Virus record (IMG/VR): IMGVR_UViG_2713896729_000002
Location: 1-5,996 of that record
DNA length: 5,996 nucleotides
Reading direction: 5' to 3' (one strand)
Origin: a virus
Lineage: Duplodnaviria; Heunggongvirae; Uroviricota; Caudoviricetes
Numbering within the stretch: the stretch's first letter is position 1; each line of letters opens with the position of its first letter. Shown here piece by piece: positions 1-5,996 of the stretch. Position numbers and translations under genes: made by a program. Below the pieces are notes generated by a model. That model saw nothing but the letters and a program-made list of their open reading frames with translations, was not told the origin of the DNA and searched no databases.

Positions 1-330
1 GATGCTGCCATTGCCCGCGCCGATGAAACGATACGCGGGTACATGGGAACGTCAGCCACCATTACATCCGGTGAGCAGTCAGGTGCGGTGATACGTGGTG
101 TTTTTGATGACCCTGAAAATATCAGCTATGCCGGACAGGGCGTGCGCGTTGAAGGCTCCAGCCCGTCCCTGTTTGTCCGGACTGATGATGCGCGGCAGCT
201 GCGGCGTGGAGACACGCTGACCATCGGTGAGGAAAATTTCTGGGTAGATCGGGTTTCGCCGGATGATGGCGGAAGTTGTCATCTCTGGCTTGGACGGGGC
301 GTACCGCCTGCCGTTAACCGTCGCCGCTGA
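1..330 (+). CDS. FII: Lambda-like head-tail joining / tail attachment protein FII; 5' end (about 8 codons) lies outside the window
   Basis: Frame 1 is open from position 1 (DAAIARADETIRGYMGTSATI...) to TGA at 328-330. The translation matches my recollection of phage lambda gpFII, and the gene order FII-Z-U-V follows. The track ORF 43..330 is only the internal-Met version. Confidence 0.85.
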   Translation, partial: DAAIARADETIRGYMGTSATITSGEQSGAVIRGVFDDPENISYAGQGVRVEGSSPSLFVRTDDARQLRRGDTLTIGEENFWVDRVSPDDGGSCHLWLGRGVPPAVNRRR

Positions 331-341
331 AAGGGGGATGT

Positions 342-920
342 ATGGTCATAAAAGGTCTTGAGCAGGCCGTTGAAAACCTCAGCCGTATCAGCAGAACGGC
401 GGTGCCCGGTGCCGCCGCAATGGCCATTAACCGCGTTGCTTCATCCGCGATATCGCAGTCGGCGTCACAGGTTGCCCGTGAGACAAAGGTACGCCGGAAA
501 CTGGTAAAGGAAAGGGCCAGGCTGAAAAGGGCCACGGTCAAAAATCCGCAGGCCAGAATCAGGGTTAACCGGGGGGATTTGCCCGTAATAAAGCTGGGTA
601 ACGCGCGGATTGTCCTGTCCCGACGCAGGCGTCGTAAAAAGGGGCAGCGTTCAGCCCTGAAAGGTGGCGGCAGCGTGCTTGTGGTGGGAAACCGTCGTAT
701 TCCCGGCGCGTTTATTCAGCAACTGAAAAATGGCCGCTGGCATGTCATGCAGCGTGTGGCCGGGAAAAACCGTTACCCCATTGATGTGGTGAAAATCCCG
801 ATGGCGGTGCCGCTGACCACGGCGTTTAAACAGAATATTGAGCGGATACGGCGTGAGCGTCTTCCGAAAGAGCTGGGCTATGCGCTGCAGCATCAACTGA
901 GGATGGTAATAAAGCGATGA
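342..920 (+). CDS. Z: Lambda-like tail completion protein Z (minor tail protein Z), 192 aa
   Basis: ORF 342..920 with a GGGGGA ribosome-binding site 5-10 nt upstream. The protein (MVIKGLEQAVENLSRISRTAVPGAAAMAINRV...) matches lambda gpZ from memory, including the basic RRRRRKKGQR stretch. Its stop overlaps the U start (ATGA at 917-920). Confidence 0.9.
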   Translation: MVIKGLEQAVENLSRISRTAVPGAAAMAINRVASSAISQSASQVARETKVRRKLVKERARLKRATVKNPQARIRVNRGDLPVIKLGNARIVLSRRRRRKKGQRSALKGGGSVLVVGNRRIPGAFIQQLKNGRWHVMQRVAGKNRYPIDVVKIPMAVPLTTAFKQNIERIRRERLPKELGYALQHQLRMVIKR

Positions 921-1312
921 AACATACTGAACTCCGTGCAGCCGTACTGGATGCACTGGAGAAGCATGACACCGGGGCGACGCTTTTTGATGGTCGCCCC
1001 GCTGTTTTTGATGAGGAAGATTTTCCGGCAATTGCCGTTTATCTCACCGGCGCTGAATACACGGGCGAAGAGCTGGACAGCGATACCTGGCAGGCGGAGC
1101 TGCATATCGAAGTTTTCCTGCCTGCTCAGGTGCCGGATTCAGAGCTGGATGCGTGGATGGAGTCCCGGATTTATCCGGTGATGAGCGATATCCCGGCACT
1201 GTCAGATTTGATCACCAGTATGGTGGCCAGTGGCTATGACTACCGGCGCGACGATGATGCGGGCCTGTGGAGTTCAGCCGATCTGACTTATGTCATTACC
1301 TATGAAATGTGA
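917..1312 (+). CDS. U: Lambda-like tail tube terminator protein U (minor tail protein U), 131 aa
   Basis: ORF 917..1312. The protein ([36 protein letters not shown]...) matches lambda gpU from memory. It is translationally coupled to Z through the ATGA overlap. Confidence 0.9.
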
Positions 1313-1319
1313 GGACGCT

Positions 1320-1609
1320 ATGCCTGTACCAAATCCTACAATGCCGGTGAAAGGTGCCGGGACCACCCTGTGGGTTTATAAGGGGAGCGGTGACCCTTAT
1401 GCGAACCCGCTTTCAGACGTTGACTGGTCGCGTCTGGCAAAAGTTAAAGACCTGACGCCCGGCGAACTGACCGCTGAGTCCTATGACGACAGCTATCTCG
1501 ATGATGAAGATGCAGACTGGACTGCGACCGGGCAGGGGCAGAAATCTGCCGGAGATACCAGCTTCACGCTGGCGTGGATGCCCGGAGAGCAGGGGCAGCA
1601 GGCGCTGCT
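1320..1609 (+). CDS. V: Lambda-like major tail tube protein V, N-terminal ~96 codons only; truncated by the N-run at 1610
   Basis: ATG at 1320 is preceded by GAGGA (1311-1315). The translation [36 protein letters not shown]... matches the lambda gpV N-terminus. The track ORF 1290..1682 starts at an upstream in-frame ATG inside U and runs through the N gap into unrelated repeat sequence, so its 3' part is an artefact. Confidence 0.8.
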
Positions 1610-1619
1610 NNNNNNNNNN
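1610..1619. other. Assembly gap (10 N)
   Basis: Run of exactly 10 n. Sequence character changes abruptly across it, from phage V coding sequence to LDR repeat. Confidence 0.95.
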
Positions 1620-1842
1620 ACTTCCACAAGTAAATATTGGCAACCCGAGCTGGAAGCCTCATCCAGAGCACTCATGAAATGACTGTAACAGCTGTTGAAA
1701 AACCGGAATGCACTCTTCATTGCAAACATTTCAGGGATGAAGTGAAGATGAATTGAGTCGTAGTATCCACACCAAGCCGGCGTTATCCGGTGAGGCGCAA
1801 TGTTGCGGGGGCTTTATCCCTGGTGGCATTGGTTGCTGGAAA

Positions 1843-1908
1843 GAGAAAACCCCCGCACGTTGAGAGGTACAACCTGACAACAGAACGGGGGCTAATCTTG
1901 AACCAGAA
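1843..1908 (-). ncRNA. rdl: Rdl-like cis-antisense RNA (antitoxin of Ldr), copy 1; coordinates approximate
   Basis: In characterised ldr/rdl loci the ~66-nt Rdl RNA lies about 50-115 nt upstream of the ldr ATG on the opposite strand. At that position the minus strand has a hairpin (CCCCCG 1850-1855 pairing with CGGGGG 1886-1891) followed by a minus-strand U-tract (plus aagagaaaa 1841-1849), which fits an intrinsic terminator at the predicted 3' end. A weak minus-strand promoter-like TTGTAA-N17-TATTCT lies just upstream (plus ~1912-1940). Confidence 0.5.
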
Positions 1909-1956
1909 CAATTCAAGAATAGCCGCAAAATGTTGTCATTACAACAAGGCGGCTAT

Positions 1957-2064
1957 ATGACGCTCGCGCAGTTTGCCATGATTTTCTGGGACGACCTGGC
2001 AGCACCGATCCTGGCGGGAATTATTACCGCAGCGATTGTCGGCTGGTGGCGTAACCGGAAGTAA
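1957..2064 (+). CDS. ldr: Ldr-family type I toxin peptide, 35 aa (MTLAQFAMIFWDDLAAPILAGIITAAIVGWWRNRK)
   Basis: ATG at 1957, TAA at 2062-2064. It is a small hydrophobic peptide with a basic C-terminus (WWRNRK), recognised as the E. coli LdrA-D family. It is not in the supplied ORF track because it is too short. Confidence 0.8.
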   Translation: MTLAQFAMIFWDDLAAPILAGIITAAIVGWWRNRK

Positions 2065-2113
2065 GGTGAAAACGGGCGTCAGGCTGCCGTGATGGCAATA
2101 TGCGCCCGAAACC

Positions 2114-2147
2114 GGCCGCAGGGGTAACAGCCTGCGGCCATTTTTGT
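2114..2147 (+). terminator. Rho-independent terminator downstream of ldr copy 1
   Basis: Perfect 9-bp stem GGCCGCAGG (2114-2122) pairing with CCTGCGGCC (2131-2139), an 8-nt loop, then ATTTTTGTCTTT. Confidence 0.65.
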
Positions 2148-2377
2148 CTTTATCTCTTCCACAAGTAAATATTGGCAACCCGAGCTGGAAGCATCATCCA
2201 GAGCACTCATGAAACGACTGCAACAGCTGTTGAAAAGCCGGAATGTACTCTTTATTGCAAACATTTCAGGGATGAAGTGAAGATGAATTGAGAAGTAGTA
2301 TCCACACCAAGCCGGAATTATCCGGTGAGGCGCAATGTTGCGGGGGCTTTATCCCTGGTGGCATTGGTTGCTGGAAA

Positions 2378-2443
2378 GAGAAAACCCCCGCACGTTGAGA
2401 GGTAAAACCTGACAACAGAACGGGGGCTAATCTTGAAACCAGA
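2378..2443 (-). ncRNA. rdl: Rdl-like cis-antisense RNA, copy 2; coordinates approximate
   Basis: Same hairpin plus U-tract architecture as copy 1, shifted by 535 bp (CCCCCG ... CGGGGG around 2385-2426). Confidence 0.5.
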
Positions 2444-2491
2444 CACTTCAAGAATAGCCGCAAAATGTTGTCATTACAACAAGGCGGCTAT

Positions 2492-2599
2492 ATGACGCTC
2501 GCGCAGTTTGCCATGATTTTCTGGCACGACCTGGCAGCACCGATCCTGGCGGGGATTATTACCGCAGCGATTGTCAGCTGGTGGCGTAACCGGAAGTAA
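2492..2599 (+). CDS. ldr: Ldr-family type I toxin peptide, 35 aa (MTLAQFAMIFWHDLAAPILAGIITAAIVSWWRNRK)
   Basis: ATG at 2492, TAA at 2597-2599. It differs from copy 1 at two residues (D12H, G29S). Confidence 0.8.
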   Translation: MTLAQFAMIFWHDLAAPILAGIITAAIVSWWRNRK

Positions 2600-2638
2600 G
2601 GTGAAAACGGGCGTCAGGCTGCCGTGATGGCAATATGC

Positions 2639-2648: not shown

Positions 2649-2813
2649 CCGCTGTGTGGAGTCGCATTATAGGGAGAGTTCAAAATGAGTCAACGCATTT
2701 TCTAAAGAAATTGTTCGTTCGTCGTAAATTTAAGCAAGATGATCGCAAAACAGACCGTGTTGCGCAATTTGTCAACGAAAACAATAATGCGTAAGGTAGA
2801 AACCCGAACTACA

Positions 2814-2841
2814 TTGAGGAATCAGGCGGGAGTGATAGAAT
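2814..2841 (+). promoter_or_regulatory. Putative sigma70 promoter for gltX (TTGAGG, 16-bp spacer, extended -10 TGaTAGAAT)
   Basis: -35-like TTGAGG at 2814-2819 and TG-extended -10 TAGAAT at 2836-2841. AAGG Shine-Dalgarno at 2895-2898 precedes the ATG at 2907. This is a motif-only call. Confidence 0.3.
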
Positions 2842-2906
2842 ATCGCCCACTCAATTTTTCCAGGATTTGCCGGTTGTCGGCATCTTTCTAAACGTAAGGC
2901 CATTTC

Positions 2907-4322
2907 ATGAAAATCAAAACTCGCTTCGCGCCAAGCCCAACAGGCTATCTGCACGTTGGCGGCGCGCGTACTGCTCTTTACTCCTGGCTTTTTGCACGTA
3001 ACCACGGCGGTGAGTTCGTGCTGCGTATTGAAGACACCGATCTTGAGCGTTCCACGCCGGAAGCTATCGAAGCCATTATGGATGGCATGAACTGGCTGAG
3101 CCTGGAGTGGGATGAAGGTCCGTACTACCAGACCAAACGTTTTGATCGCTACAACGCGGTGATCGATCAGATGCTGGAAGAGGGCACTGCTTATAAATGC
3201 TATTGCTCTAAAGAGCGCCTGGAAGCGCTGCGCGAAGAGCAAATGGCGAAAGGTGAGAAGCCGCGTTATGACGGTCGCTGCCGCCACAGCCATGAGCATC
3301 ATGCTGATGATGAACCGTGTGTTGTACGTTTTGCTAACCCGCAGGAAGGTTCTGTTGTTTTTGACGATCAGATCCGTGGTCCGATCGAGTTCAGCAACCA
3401 GGAACTGGACGATCTTATTATCCGCCGTACCGATGGTTCCCCAACCTATAACTTCTGTGTGGTTGTCGATGACTGGGATATGGAAATCACCCACGTTATC
3501 CGTGGCGAAGACCATATCAACAACACGCCACGCCAGATCAACATTCTTAAGGCCCTGAAAGCGCCGGTGCCGGTTTACGCGCACGTTTCTATGATCAATG
3601 GCGATGACGGTAAAAAACTGTCCAAACGTCACGGGGCAGTCAGCGTAATGCAGTATCGTGATGACGGTTATTTGCCAGAAGCACTGCTGAACTATCTGGT
3701 GCGTCTGGGCTGGTCCCACGGCGATCAGGAAATCTTCACTCGTGAAGAGATGATCAAATACTTCACTTTGAATGCCGTCAGCAAATCTGCCAGTGCGTTC
3801 AACACCGACAAGCTGCTGTGGCTGAACCATCACTACATTAACGCGCTGCCGCCGGAGTATGTTGCTACTCACTTACAGTGGCACATTGAGCAGGAAAATA
3901 TCGATACCCGTAACGGCCCGCAGCTGGCTGATCTGGTGAAACTGCTGGGCGAACGCTGCAAGACGCTGAAAGAGATGGCACAGAGCTGCCGTTATTTCTA
4001 CGAAGATTTTGCTGAGTTCGATGCCGACGCCGCGAAAAAACATCTGCGTCCGGTAGCGCGTCAGCCGCTGGAAGTGGTTCGTGACAAACTGGCCGCGATT
4101 ACTGACTGGACCGCTGAAAACGTTCATCACGCTATTCAGGCGACGGCGGATGAGCTGGAAGTGGGTATGGGTAAAGTTGGTATGCCGCTGCGTGTCGCCG
4201 TAACCGGTGCGGGGCAGTCTCCAGCACTGGATGTTACCGTTCACGCAATTGGTAAGACCCGCAGTATCGAGCGTATCAACAAAGCGCTGGATTTTATTGC
4301 TGAACGCGAAAATCAGCAGTAA
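2907..4322 (+). CDS. gltX: Glutamyl-tRNA synthetase (class I aminoacyl-tRNA synthetase), 471 aa
   Basis: ORF 2907..4322. It has the class I HIGH-type motif ([19 protein letters not shown]), a KMSKS-type motif (KLSKR), and the Zn-binding Cys/His cluster (CYC...CRH). Length and sequence match E. coli GltX as I recall it. Confidence 0.97.
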
Positions 4323-4335
4323 TTAGCGTGTAAAA

Positions 4336-4372
4336 AGATAAACGGCAGGAGATAATATCCTGCCGTTTTTTA
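4336..4372. terminator. Bidirectional rho-independent terminator between convergent gltX and yfeD
   Basis: Perfect 10-bp stem AACGGCAGGA (4341-4350) pairing with TCCTGCCGTT (4358-4367), loop GATAATA, followed by TTTTTTATTTA on the plus strand and preceded by TAAAAAGATA, which gives a U-tract for the minus-strand transcript. Confidence 0.75.
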
Positions 4373-4373
4373 T

Positions 4374-4658
4374 TTATGCTGATTCGTCAATATCGAGACG
4401 GGCGAGGAAATTGCGAATTCCTTCACGTGACAAAAATTGCGCGACTTTTTCCTGCTCAATGTCTGTCATATTATCTATCGCGTTGATGATTTGTCGATAC
4501 GCCGGGGCGCGTGCTCCAGGAGCGTATTCAGCAATTCTCTCTTCAGCTTCCATCAACATTGGTGTGTTATGGAAGGCTGGCGTGTTCTGAATAAACTCGC
4601 AAACTTGCGTATCGACCAGAATAAGTCTGGCACGACCGCCTTTCACGCCGGGAAATTT
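4374..4658 (-). pseudogene. yfeD: yfeD-like small DNA-binding protein (DUF1323), C-terminal ~94 codons; reading frame interrupted at 4658/4659 by an IS insertion
   Basis: Minus-strand frame is open from the stop at 4374-4376 up to 4658 (...KFPGVKGGRARLILVDTQVCEF...DIDESA). The track ORF 4374..4646 starts at GTG, which is an internal Val of the native protein as I recall it (...GWKTEKFPGVKGG...). Convergent placement next to gltX matches E. coli synteny. The N-terminal part continues on the far side of the IS (5985-5996 encodes WKTE on the minus strand, in frame). Confidence 0.6.
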
Positions 4659-4664
4659 AATGAG

Positions 4665-4676
4665 ATGGTCACTCCC
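4665..4676. repeat. Left subterminal inverted repeat of the IS (ATGGTCACTCCC)
   Basis: Exact reverse complement of 5970-5981. Confidence 0.7.
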
Positions 4677-4724
4677 TCCTTCCCGGTACTATGCTGAGGA
4701 CAGGCTTTCATTCGGAGAACTATC

Positions 4725-5729
4725 ATGGAAAACATTGCGCTCATTGGTATCGATCTGGGTAAAAACTCTTTCCATATTCATTGCCAGGATCGTCGCGGGA
4801 AGGCTGTTTACCGTAAAAAATTTACCCGGCCAAAGTTGATCGAATTTTTGGCGACATGCCCCGCTACAACCATCGCAATGGAAGCCTGTGGCGGTTCTCA
4901 CTTTATGGCACGCAAGTTGGAAGAGTTGGGGCATTCCCCAAAGCTGATATCACCACAATTTGTCCGCCCGTTCGTTAAAAGCAATAAAAACGACTTTGTC
5001 GACGCCGAAGCTATTTGTGAAGCTGCATCGCGTCCGTCTATGCGTTTTGTGCAGCCCAGAACGGAATCTCAGCAGGCAATGCGGGCTCTGCATCGTGTCC
5101 GTGAATCCCTGGTTCAGGATAAGGTAAAAACAACCAATCAAATGCATGCTTTTCTGCTGGAATTTGGCATTAGCGTTCCCCGAGGAGCTGCCGTTATTAG
5201 CCGACTGAGTACCATTCTTGAGGATAATAGTTTGCCTCTTTACCTCAGCCAGTTATTGCTGAAATTACAACAGCATTATCACTATCTTGTTGAGCAGATT
5301 AAAGATTTGGAATCCCAGTTGAAACGAAAGTTGGACGAAGATGAGGTTGGACAGCGCTTGCTGAGCATTCCCTGCGTCGGAACACTGACAGCGAGTACTA
5401 TTTCAACTGAGATTGGCGACGGGAAGCAGTACGCCAGCAGCCGTGACTTTGCGGCGGCAACAGGGCTTGTACCTCGGCAGTACAGCACGGGAGGTAGGAC
5501 GACATTGCTGGGAATTAGTAAGCGAGGTAATAAAAAGATCCGAACTTTGTTGGTTCAATGTGCCAGGGTATTCATACAAAAACTGGAACACCAGTCTGGC
5601 AAATTGGCCGATTGGGTCAGGGATTTACTGTGCCGGAAAAGCAACTTTGTCGTCACTTGTGCTCTGGCAAACAAGCTGGCCAGAATAGCCTGGGCCCTAA
5701 CGGCACGACAGCAAACTTATGTAGCATAA
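4725..5729 (+). CDS. IS110-family transposase / DEDD recombinase, 334 aa
   Basis: ORF 4725..5729 with GGAGA ribosome-binding site 7 nt upstream. N-terminal MENIALIGIDLGKNSF has the conserved RuvC-like catalytic Asp (DEDD_Tnp_IS110 type). The C-terminal region has the Transposase_20-type signature (IPCVGTLTASTISTEIGDGKQYASSRDFAAATGLVPRQYSTGG). Confidence 0.9.
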   Translation: MENIALIGIDLGKNSFHIHCQDRRGKAVYRKKFTRPKLIEFLATCPATTIAMEACGGSHFMARKLEELGHSPKLISPQFVRPFVKSNKNDFVDAEAICEAASRPSMRFVQPRTESQQAMRALHRVRESLVQDKVKTTNQMHAFLLEFGISVPRGAAVISRLSTILEDNSLPLYLSQLLLKLQQHYHYLVEQIKDLESQLKRKLDEDEVGQRLLSIPCVGTLTASTISTEIGDGKQYASSRDFAAATGLVPRQYSTGGRTTLLGISKRGNKKIRTLLVQCARVFIQKLEHQSGKLADWVRDLLCRKSNFVVTCALANKLARIAWALTARQQTYVA

Positions 5730-5969
5730 CGGCAGAAATACACCGGTTTAAAGAATTACTGATCTGGTTTTGCGAATACTGATATTGATGATACTAACGG
5801 CCCACCGGCCTGTTGAGGAACCTGTAAAACGGAAAGGCTCATTGAAGCCGTATATTTTCTGGAGGTTCATCAGGCGCGGAACTCATCAAGGCGCGGGAAT
5901 AAAATCCCATTCAGACGCCGGATAGATTCAAGCAAGCCAACTTGTCGTCAAAATCGGTGTTGCAAAAAC
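5730..5969 (+). ncRNA. Putative IS-encoded guide RNA (seekRNA / bridge-RNA-like) in the non-coding right end of the IS; boundaries unknown
   Basis: 240 bp between the transposase stop and the right inverted repeat has no ORF of 60 aa or more that lies wholly inside it. It contains AAAACGGAAA (5826-5835), the reverse complement of target flank TTTCCGTTTT, followed 2 nt later by CTCATT (5838-5843), the reverse complement of the IS left terminal hexamer AATGAG. It also has an imperfect direct repeat, CATCAGGCGCGGAA (5869-5882) and CATCAAGGCGCGGGAA (5885-5900). IS110/IS1111 elements are known to encode such RNAs in their long non-coding end. Confidence 0.35.
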
Positions 5970-5981
5970 GGGAGTGACCAT
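5970..5981. repeat. Right subterminal inverted repeat of the IS (GGGAGTGACCAT)
   Basis: Exact reverse complement of 4665-4676, 3 bp from the inferred right end. Confidence 0.7.
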
Positions 5982-5984
5982 AGA

Positions 5985-5996
5985 TTCCGTTTTCCA
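5985..5996 (-). pseudogene. yfeD: yfeD, 5'-proximal part resuming after the IS (continues beyond the window)
   Basis: Minus-strand codons at 5985-5996 read W-K-T-E, which joins in frame to KFPGVKGG at 4658 and downstream once 4659-5984 is removed. This matches the recalled native YfeD sequence ...REKGWKTEKFPGVKGGRARL... Confidence 0.5.

What the first reader, a model, noticed from the sequence alone, without database searches (positions are those of the whole stretch)
5985..5996. Chromosomal insertion site resembles the 38-bp terminal inverted repeat of Tn21-family transposons, the known target of IS4321/IS5075
The reconstructed native yfeD site, read on the minus strand, is TGGAAAACGGAAAAATTTCCC. 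As I recall it, the Tn21-family terminal repeat contains CAGAAAACGGAAAATAAAGC, giving a shared core GAAAACGGAAAA. If this IS is an IS4321/IS5075 relative, yfeD would be a chromosomal mimic of its natural plasmid-borne target, and the same 10-mer is complementary to 5826-5835 inside the IS. That would tie target choice to short sequence complementarity rather than to the Tn21 context.
Basis: partly seen in the sequence, partly recalled or inferred. Interest (0 to 1): 0.55.

Follow-up and report, generated by a model that had tools for sequence, protein, structure and literature searches.

The report
IS4321 in a yfeD look-alike target
The element is the known insertion sequence IS4321, sitting in the E. 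coli gene yfeD because a short stretch of yfeD looks like its usual transposon-end target and base-pairs with a guide RNA the element encodes; this is correct but already-understood biology.

Summary
Intact yfeD reads TGGAAAACGGAAAAATTTCCC on the minus strand. The uninterrupted Tn21-type 38-bp repeat is GGGGTCGCCTCAGAAAACGGAAAATAAAGCACGCTAAG. They share GAAAACGGAAAA, and 5826-5835 (AAAACGGAAA) is complementary to the plus strand of the site.

The IS is IS4321 itself: 100% identical to plasmid copies and 93.5% to IS5075. yfeD is a recurrent chromosomal target, occupied in 172 of 5426 complete E. coli genomes. At least eight combinations of IS variant, yfeD allele and junction form were found.

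Copies outside transposon repeats share only about ATATT^T(T/A)CCGTTT(T). That is the combined footprint of two segments, 5826-5835 and 5852-5859, on opposite strands of a conserved internal loop in the 3' non-coding region. In relatives with other targets the first segment covaries with the flank.

This is the seekRNA/bridge-RNA mechanism published for the IS1111 group in 2024. A chromosomal look-alike of the Tn21 repeat (K. pneumoniae ureC::IS5075) was published in 2021. I found no paper naming yfeD.

One thing is unexplained. yfeD has five T's where the canonical target has four, and the junctions come in three forms. The commonest, the window's, is one T short of a precise insertion.

The parts
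4374..4657 (-). 3' part of yfeD (YfeC-like/MerR-type regulator), cut off from its first ~36 codons by the IS
   Evidence: Pfam YfeC-like, E=1e-38. RefSeq annotates the same locus as a split YfeC-like pseudogene. Intact yfeD is seen in L005 and L006.
4645..4657 (+). Left half of the target as it stands next to the IS (ACGCCGGGAAATT)
   Evidence: Junction read. It matches the left-half consensus ATATT only as AAATT.
4658..5984 (+). IS4321, 1327 bp by the conventional ends (TAATGAG...AGA). Whether T4658 belongs to the IS or to the flank cannot be decided at this site.
   Evidence: 100% identical to plasmid IS4321 and 93.5% to IS5075. Published length 1327 bp and circle junction AGATAATGAG (PMC5001619).
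4665..4676 (+). Left subterminal inverted repeat ATGGTCACTCCC, preceded by the 7-bp terminal extension TAATGAG (4658-4664)
   Evidence: The rule of 7 bp on the left and 3 bp on the right comes from PMC11187229.
4725..5729 (+). Transposase/recombinase gene, 334 aa, DEDD type
   Evidence: Pfam DEDD_Tnp_IS110 (1e-20) and Transposase_20 (4e-20). Identical to WP_000427623.1, annotated as IS4321 family transposase.
5805..5879 (+). Target-binding module of the IS-encoded guide RNA: outer stem 5805-5823/5863-5879, internal loop, closing hairpin 5836-5849
   Evidence: RNAalifold on 14 related non-coding regions. 96% of cells are paired against 44% or less in slid registers, with 4 compensatory pairs. 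The single-sequence fold agrees.
5826..5835 (+). Guide segment AAAACGGAAA. As RNA it would pair with the plus strand of the target, TTTCCGTTTT.
   Evidence: It covaries with the right flank in four specificity groups: diagonal scores 10/10, 6/10, 10/10 and 8/9, off-diagonal at most 6/8.
5852..5859 (+). Second guide segment ATATTTTC. It has the same sequence as the target plus strand, so as RNA it would pair with the minus strand of the left half.
   Evidence: It matches ATATTTTC in non-repeat sites and TATTTTC in the Tn21 repeat. In L081 the matching segment GATTTTTT fits its own flank 8/8. It lies 3' of the first guide, as reported for IS1111 seekRNAs.
5880..5930 (+). Putative donor-binding module. 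CUCAU (5882-5886) is complementary to ATGAG in the left end. AUAGAUUC (5922-5929) equals the right end ATAGA plus flank TTC. They lie either side of a stem and a variable hairpin (5890-5920).
   Evidence: The segments are invariant in all relatives while the hairpin between them varies and covaries. This is inference only, because every relative was selected for having the same right end.
5960..5965 (+). -35 box TTGCAA of the junction promoter. The -10 box GATAAT forms only when the ends are joined: GA (5983-5984) plus TAAT (4658-4661), with a 17-nt spacer.
   Evidence: Computed on the joined ends. Promoter boxes across the circle junction are described in PMC5001619.
5970..5984 (+). Right subterminal inverted repeat GGGAGTGACCAT (5970-5981) plus the 3-bp terminal extension AGA
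5985..5996 (+). Right half of the target, TTCCGTTTTCCA. This is yfeD coding sequence (codons W-K-T-E on the minus strand) and the coordinates of the finding.
   Evidence: TTCCGTTTT is the part complementary to 5826-5834.

Best explanation
The window holds a complete copy of IS4321, an IS1111-group member of the IS110 family, inserted into E. coli yfeD. A stretch of yfeD that encodes W-K-T-E-K-F happens to resemble the middle of the 38-bp terminal repeat of Tn21/Tn3-family transposons, which is the element's usual target. Recognition is by RNA. The 255-nt region downstream of the recombinase gene encodes a seekRNA/bridge RNA whose internal loop carries two guides. AAAACGGAAA (5826-5835) pairs with the plus strand TTTCCGTTTT. 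ATATTTTC (5852-5859) pairs with the minus strand of the left half. The DEDD recombinase then joins the circular IS (junction AGA-T-AATGAG) to the target at ATT^TTCC, in one orientation and without a duplication. Shown here: the identity of the IS, the sequences of the empty and occupied sites, repeated independent use of yfeD, the minimal shared target, the conserved loop structure, and guide-flank covariation. Inferred from published work on relatives: that the RNA is made, binds the recombinase and directs the reaction.
For: - Identity: 100% to plasmid IS4321, same protein accession.
- Family anatomy: DEDD and Transposase_20 domains, 12-bp subterminal repeats with 7-bp and 3-bp extensions, and a downstream non-coding region.
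- Empty sites: yfeD and the Tn21-type repeat.
- Survey of 123 right ends from many species, plus E. coli: most lie in Tn3-family repeats. Nine unrelated sites share only ATATT^T(T/A)CCGTTT(T). The base after TTTT is not conserved outside repeats, exactly where the guide ends.
- In E. coli, 2194 places read through the IS end into at least 7 nt of the same flank.
- Covariation: AAAACGGAAA with TTCCGTTTT, GGTTAGGAAT with TTCCTAACC, ATATCGGAAT with TTCGATAT, ACACTAAAT with TTTAGTGT. The cross-matrix diagonal dominates.
- Structure.
- yfeD is occupied in 172 of 5426 genomes, by IS4321 and IS5075, in allele A and B-like alleles, with three junction forms.
- Literature: seekRNA shown for ISEc11, ISKpn4, ISPst6 and ISPa11, with the top-strand match lying 5' of the bottom-strand match (PMC11187229). 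A bridge RNA is predicted in the right end for the IS4321/IS5075 cluster (PMC11208160, Supplementary Table 5).
Against: - No RNA, binding or transposition data exist for IS4321 itself, here or in the papers read.
- Rfam has no family that matches the non-coding region.
- Structural covariation is modest because the relatives are close (4 compensatory pairs).
- The second guide is T-rich, and its cross-matrix is much less specific than the first guide's.
- yfeD matches the second guide poorly (5 contiguous nt) and has one T too many, yet it is used often. So pairing on the left half is either loosely required or not fully understood.
- The commonest yfeD junction is not the product of a precise reaction.
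Confidence: 0.9

Rival explanations
1. The recombinase protein, or the Tn21 transposition machinery bound at the repeat, recognises the Tn21 repeat as a whole. On this view yfeD is an accident and the internal 10-mer is a coincidence.
For: Most copies do lie in Tn3-family repeats. A 10-nt match has a chance probability of about 0.6% on its own, which is not negligible in a genome-wide scan.
Against: Copies in yfeD, napA, a phage tail gene and other sites have no GGGG...CTAAG repeat and no transposon nearby. The internal segment changes in step with the flank in relatives. Conservation in non-repeat sites stops where the guides stop.
Confidence: 0.03
2. yfeD::IS is a single old insertion that spread clonally or by recombination, so yfeD is not a real preferred target.
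For: About 94% of occupied genomes share one junction form. Homologous recombination could move an occupied allele between lineages, and gene conversion could swap IS4321 for IS5075.
Against: Eight combinations were found. 3T|2T occurs with IS4321 in allele A, with IS5075 in two B-like sub-alleles, and with an IS4321 variant in another B-like allele. 3T|3T occurs with IS4321 in A, IS5075 in A, and IS5075 in a B-like allele. 4T|2T occurs with a 1-nt-deleted IS4321 in B. Three junction forms cannot come from one event without further indels.
Confidence: 0.05
3. The 10-mer inside the IS is a relic of a captured target fragment, left by an earlier nested insertion or imprecise excision, and has no role.
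For: The IS takes one T from its left flank on circle formation and shows 1.7% junction indels (PMC5001619), so flank capture does happen at the ends.
Against: The segment lies 150 nt inside the element, in a conserved loop between conserved stems. It is in the orientation complementary to the target. It is paired with a second segment for the other half-site. It differs in relatives exactly as their targets differ.
Confidence: 0.02

Closest known systems
IS4321 / IS5075 (IS1111 group; Partridge & Hall 2003, J Bacteriol 185:6371)
   Same: The window copy is 100% identical to plasmid IS4321 and 93.5% to IS5075. It has the same ends, the same 1327-bp length, the same circle junction and the same orientation-specific target in the 38-bp repeats of Tn21-family transposons.
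   Different: Nothing about the element differs. Only the location does: a chromosomal coding gene, not a transposon end. I could not read the 2003 paper; it is known here through citations.
seekRNA of IS1111-family elements (ISEc11, ISKpn4, ISPst6, ISPa11; Siddiquee et al. 2024, PMC11187229)
   Same: A downstream non-coding region and two short target matches that overlap in the target, with the top-strand complement 5' of the bottom-strand match. Relatives are naturally reprogrammed. There is no target duplication.
   Different: IS4321 was not one of the elements tested experimentally; that paper only reproduced its target logo from about 900 insertions. The guide positions given here are computational.
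Bridge RNA of IS621 and other IS110-family elements (Durrant et al. 2024, PMC11208160; Hiraizumi et al. 2024)
   Same: An internal-loop architecture in which each loop strand reads one strand of one half-site, plus a possible second loop for the donor ends. Their Supplementary Table 5 lists the IS4321/IS5075 cluster with a bridge RNA in the right end.
   Different: The RNA is at the 3' end, not the 5' end. The subterminal repeats are long. Donor and target share only a single T at the crossover here (AGA-T-AAT against ATT-T-TCC), not IS621's CT dinucleotide. The donor loop is unproven.
ureC::IS5075 in Klebsiella pneumoniae (mSystems 2021, PMC8269217)
   Same: A chromosomal coding gene whose sequence resembles the Tn21 repeat. 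It is hit repeatedly by IS5075 and related ISs, with many independent events, and is read as accidental mimicry.
   Different: A different species and gene, and a higher frequency (14.1% of genomes against 3.2% here). A phenotype (urease-negative) is known for ureC; none is known for yfeD. Junction-length variation was not reported there in the text I read.

Membership tests
IS1111 group of the IS110 family | DEDD (RuvC-like) transposase with an IS110-type C-terminal domain | tested here: met
   PF01548, E=1.3e-20, and PF02371, E=4.4e-20.
IS1111 group of the IS110 family | Subterminal inverted repeats of 11-13 bp, with terminal extensions of 7 (or 6) bp on the left and 3 bp on the right | tested here: met
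   TAATGAG + ATGGTCACTCCC ... GGGAGTGACCAT + AGA. The rule comes from PMC11187229.
IS1111 group of the IS110 family | Long non-coding region downstream of the transposase gene | tested here: met
   255 nt (5730-5984) downstream against 67 nt upstream.
IS1111 group of the IS110 family | One specific target, one orientation, no target duplication | tested here: met
   All 41 two-sided sites have the same polarity. Tn3-family repeat targets rebuild to exactly 38 bp, and four coding-gene sites rebuild to open frames, with a 1327-bp insert. Exception: the commonest yfeD junction is one T short.
IS1111 group of the IS110 family | Circular intermediate with abutted ends that creates a promoter | not testable with these tools
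   The joined ends give TTGCAA-17-GATAAT. Circles with junction AGATAATGAG were sequenced by others (PMC5001619).
seekRNA / bridge RNA-guided recombinase | Two short segments in the non-coding RNA complementary to the two strands of the target, overlapping at the crossover, with the top-strand complement first in IS1111 elements | tested here: met
   5826-5835 and 5852-5859 overlap on TTTC of the target.
seekRNA / bridge RNA-guided recombinase | The guide changes with the target in related elements (programmability) | tested here: met
   Four specificity groups; the cross-matrix diagonal dominates for the first guide. The signal is weaker for the T-rich second guide.
seekRNA / bridge RNA-guided recombinase | The RNA is expressed, binds the recombinase and is required for movement | not testable with these tools
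   Shown for ISEc11, ISKpn4, ISPst6 and ISPa11 only.
Two-loop bridge RNA (IS621 type) | A second loop complementary to the donor (the IS ends) | tested here: inconclusive
   Conserved CUCAU and AUAGAUUC flank a covarying hairpin. The matches are only 5-8 nt, and no relative with different ends was available. RNAalifold alternatively pairs the two segments with each other.
Tn21/Tn3-family 38-bp terminal inverted repeat (is the yfeD site a real repeat remnant?) | GGGG at the outer end, CTAAG at the inner end, adjacent transposon genes | tested here: not met
   Only 12-13 nt are shared. The rest is yfeD coding sequence, present in all 5426 genomes between gltX and yfeC.
Rfam RNA families | A match to a curated covariance model | tested here: not met
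   No hit in 5730-5984 at E<=1. The only hits in the window are rdlD and sok-like in the LDR repeats.

The most novel reading that the evidence does not exclude
yfeD is a natural target with the two half-sites one nucleotide too far apart: T5 where the canonical site has T4. IS4321 and IS5075 still use it, and they leave three junction forms. Two are precise but sit in different registers, 4T|2T and 3T|3T. The third and commonest, 3T|2T, has canonical junction sequences on both sides and has lost one T. If this reflects the reaction itself and not later slippage, it would mean the two guide segments set the two strand exchanges independently, with the mismatch in spacing resolved by losing a base. 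That would be a natural read-out of spacing tolerance and crossover geometry in IS1111-type bridge recombinases, whose crossover overlaps the target by a single T, not a dinucleotide core.
Probability: 0.2. Interest if true: 0.45.

Novelty: already known. Interest (0 to 1): 0.27.

Why it matters
The finding is a clean worked example of known biology. A plasmid-borne IS that normally lives harmlessly in transposon ends enters the chromosome wherever about 14 nt happen to match its guide RNA. In E. coli that place is mainly yfeD, in 3.2% of complete genomes. This is useful for annotation: split yfeD "pseudogenes" are IS4321/IS5075 insertions. It could also mark exposure to Tn21-family resistance plasmids, and it adds off-target examples for bridge-recombinase design, since sites with one mismatch next to the crossover (TACCG) or only 7-8 nt of right-half pairing are used in nature. 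Only the T-run junction variation goes beyond what has been published.

Tried and rejected
- Rfam scan of the window at E<=1: nothing in the IS non-coding region.
- Partridge & Hall 2003 (PMC219399) is not held, so the ends and target were re-derived from data and from papers that cite it.
- A 2-nt shared core like IS621's CT was tested on paper against the donor junction AGATAATGAG and the Tn21 target TATTTTCC. No dinucleotide fits both product junctions; only a single shared T does (reasoning).
- I first took the IS as 4660-5984 (1325 bp). The correct limits are 4659-5984 for AATGAG...TAGA, or 4658-5984 by convention.
- Simple heteroduplex segregation across the T run gives 4T|2T and 3T|3T as sister products but cannot give 3T|2T. 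The T-less circles reported at 1.7% or less could give it but would not be expected to dominate. Neither idea could be tested.
- Three right-end remnants with ^TCCG junctions (L105, L106, L025) have no left end within 1.5 kb and gave no information.
- Frame-continuity tests were uninformative for intergenic sites (L004, L119, L103).
- Covariation could not be used on the donor loop, because the collection scan selected relatives by the right-end sequence itself.
- Literature searches for yfeD or yfeC together with IS4321 or IS5075 returned nothing.

Full report
**What the window is.** The 5996 bases are a scaffold of three contigs joined by runs of N at 1610-1619 and 2639-2648.
- 1-1609: lambda-like tail genes.
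- 1620-2638: two copies of the ldr/rdl long direct repeat (Rfam rdlD at 1844-1909 and 2379-2444).
- 2649-5996: gltX (2907-4322, plus strand), the 3' part of yfeD on the minus strand (4374-4657), and an insertion sequence that runs almost to the end of the window. Only 12 bases of yfeD (5985-5996) resume after it.

**Checking the observation.**
- Intact yfeD in two alleles that differ by about 14% reads CACGCCGGGAAATTTTTCCGTTTTCCAGCC on the plus strand. That is TGGAAAACGGAAAAATTTCCC on the minus strand.
- I did not rely on memory for the Tn21 repeat. A query carrying ...CTTAGCGTGCTTTATTTTCCGTTTTCTGAGGCGACCCC found many 100%-identical, full-length uninterrupted copies. The repeat is therefore GGGGTCGCCTCAGAAAACGGAAAATAAAGCACGCTAAG, 38 bp, and it shares GAAAACGGAAAA with yfeD.
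- A second class of Tn3-family repeat, GGGGTCCGCTTGGAAAACGGAAA..., shares 13 nt with yfeD.
- AAAACGGAAA occurs once in the window, at 5826-5835, against 0.04 expected. A 10-nt match between the non-coding region and the site was reached in 13 of 2000 shuffles.

**What the element is.** It is IS4321 itself.
- It is 100% identical over its length to plasmid copies annotated as IS4321, and 93.5% identical to IS5075. It encodes WP_000427623.1.
- It has every structural mark of the IS1111 group: a DEDD transposase, and 12-bp subterminal repeats ATGGTCACTCCC/GGGAGTGACCAT with a 7-bp left extension (TAATGAG) and a 3-bp right extension (AGA).
- It has a 255-nt non-coding region downstream of the gene. 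Its ends, once joined, form the promoter TTGCAA-17-GATAAT.
- The joined sequence AGATAATGAG and the 1327-bp length agree with circle junctions sequenced by Schoeniger et al. (PMC5001619).

**Survey of insertion sites.** I scanned one genome per species for the right-end 23-mer and looked up contexts of the exact transposase. With the fetched E. coli and plasmid loci this gave 123 right ends and 41 distinct two-sided sites.
- Most are Tn3-family 38-bp repeats with right flank TTCCGTTTTCTGAG... or TTCCGTTTTCCAAGCGG....
- Nine sites are unrelated to any repeat, among them yfeD, napA (strain ECONIH4) and a phage tail gene. They share only ATATT^T(T/A)CCGTTT(T).
- The base after TTTT, always C in the repeats, is free in these sites.
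- In E. coli, 2194 places read through the IS end into at least 7 nt of the same flank. The whole-IS query found 2317 places in all, partial copies included.
- The strict 12-mer is therefore not required. TTCCGTTTAC, TTCCGTTGTG and TACCGTTTTC are all used, and the left half ATATT matters as well.

**The guide RNA.** The shared 14 nt are exactly covered by two segments of the non-coding region. AAAACGGAAA (5826-5835) is complementary to the plus strand TTTCCGTTTT. ATATTTTC (5852-5859) is identical to the plus strand of the left half, so as RNA it would pair with the minus strand.
- They overlap on TTTC at the crossover, and the top-strand complement comes first. This is what Siddiquee et al. 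describe for IS1111 seekRNAs (PMC11187229).
- They lie on opposite strands of an internal loop, between a conserved outer stem (5805-5823/5863-5879) and a hairpin (5836-5849).
- On 14 related non-coding regions, 96% of cells pair, against 44% or less in slid registers. Four pairs carry compensatory changes.
- The decisive test is natural reprogramming. The scan also returned relatives with the same ends but different flanks, and their first loop strand changes to match the flank:

| Element(s) | First loop strand | Right flank |
|---|---|---|
| IS4321 / IS5075 | AAAACGGAAA | TTCCGTTTT |
| L101 | GGTTAGGAAT | TTCCTAACC |
| L112 group | ATATCGGAAT | TTCGATAT |
| L081 | ACACTAAAT | TTTAGTGT |

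- In a guide-by-site matrix the diagonal scores 10/10, 6/10, 10/10 and 8/9, against at most 6/8 off the diagonal.
- The second strand is T-rich and less discriminating, although L081 fits its own left flank 8/8.
- Downstream, CUCAU (5882-5886) and AUAGAUUC (5922-5929) flank a variable, covarying hairpin and match the IS's own ends. This looks like a donor-binding loop but stays an inference, because all the relatives share those ends.

**yfeD as a recurrent target.** The right junction is present in 172 of 5426 complete E. coli genomes and the left junction in 171. These are not one event:

| Junction (T's left / right) | Element | yfeD allele |
|---|---|---|
| 3 / 2 | IS4321 | A (the window, L001) |
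| 3 / 2 | IS5075 | two B-like sub-alleles |
| 3 / 2 | IS4321 variant (2 differences) | another B-like allele |
| 3 / 3 | IS4321 | A |
| 3 / 3 | IS5075 | A |
| 3 / 3 | IS5075 | B-like |
| 4 / 2 | IS4321 with a 1-nt deletion | B |

The look-alike stretch encodes W-K-T-E-K-F and is identical in both yfeD alleles. The resemblance to the transposon repeat is best read as chance, kept in place by the coding constraint.

**An unexplained detail.** Repeat targets with T3, T4 or T6 runs, and four coding-gene sites, all rebuild correctly if a 1327-bp element went in at ^TTCC. yfeD has T5.
- The forms 4T|2T (2 genomes, both near-identical APEC O1:K1:H7 strains) and 3T|3T (8 genomes) are precise but sit one register apart.
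- About 162 genomes, including the window's source, have 3T|2T. Both junctions then have the canonical sequence and one T is missing. No genome combines 4T with 3T.
- Counted as haplotype combinations and not as genomes, the split is 4 : 3 : 1, so I cannot claim that the reaction favours the short form.
- Possible causes are register ambiguity of the second guide in the T run, repair of a bulged heteroduplex, integration of the rare T-less circles (1.7% or less junction indels), or later slippage. None could be tested.

**Comparison with what is known.**
- The mechanism is published. A seekRNA was shown for four IS1111 elements, with the IS4321 target logo reproduced from about 900 insertions.
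- Bridge RNAs are predicted for 93% of IS1111 elements. The IS4321/IS5075 cluster is listed as carrying one in the right end.
- A chromosomal look-alike of the Tn21 repeat is also published: ureC::IS5075 in 14.1% of K. pneumoniae genomes (PMC8269217).
- No held paper mentions yfeD or yfeC together with these elements. The E. coli hotspot may be undescribed, but it is a further instance of a known phenomenon.

**Verdict.** Novelty: already known. Interest is low to moderate. The only open thread is the junction variation in the T run.

Noticed in passing
window 4655-4658 and 5985-5986; loci L001, L123-L129, L134, L135: The yfeD junctions come in three forms that differ in the number of T's on each side of the IS: 3|2 in about 162 genomes, 3|3 in 8 and 4|2 in 2. 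Native yfeD has T5, so the commonest form has lost one T, while all other rebuilt targets are precise.
   Followed up: partly
window 1610-1619 and 2639-2648: Two runs of ten N join unrelated contigs (phage tail genes, LDR repeats, gltX-yfeD). Neighbours across these points are not evidence of real genomic linkage.
   Followed up: no
window 1620-2638: Two tandem copies (about 535 bp apart) of the ldr/rdl type I toxin-antitoxin long direct repeat. Each has an rdlD RNA match on the minus strand (1844-1909 at 86 bits; 2379-2444 at 91 bits) and a 35-aa Ldr-like ORF on the plus strand.
   Followed up: no
window 1-1609: Lambda-like tail assembly genes: ORFs of 192 aa (342-920) and 131 aa (917-1312), and the start of a major-tail-like ORF from 1290. 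By size and order they resemble lambda Z, U and V. This rests on my own recognition and was not searched.
   Followed up: no
L130 (E. coli ECONIH4 chromosome, napA): IS4321 inserted in napA at GTCATATT^TACCGTTTTTC. Like L120, this site has A instead of T next to the crossover, a mismatch to both guide segments that is evidently tolerated.
   Followed up: partly
L019, L038, L069, L097, L102, L112: A sister IS with the same ends but guide ATATCGGAAT sits in a different Tn3-family-like repeat (right flank TTCGATATCCAAACTGACCCC). The lineage seems to have been reprogrammed from one transposon end to another.
   Followed up: partly
L046, L101; L081: Further relatives with the same right end are retargeted to TTCCTAACCATC (Klebsiella plasmid and another locus) and TTTAGTGTGCC (Burkholderia), with matching guide changes. 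The left-flank match for L046 lies further from the junction than expected.
   Followed up: partly
L105, L106, L025: Right-end remnants joined to repeats as TAGA^TCCG (one T instead of two), with no left end within 1.5 kb. These could be old or decayed copies, or another crossover register.
   Followed up: partly
L125 (APEC O1:K1:H7), equivalent to window 5939: This yfeD copy of IS4321 has a 1-nt deletion in the non-coding region, downstream of the putative donor module.
   Followed up: no
window 4334-4372: A GC-rich inverted repeat (AAACGGCAGGA...TCCTGCCGTTT) followed by a run of T lies between the convergent genes gltX and yfeD. It is probably a two-way terminator. Seen by eye only.
   Followed up: no
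summary: One of the 173 records holding the yfeD::IS right junction is labelled a plasmid. This could be a misassigned contig or a captured chromosomal segment.
   Followed up: no
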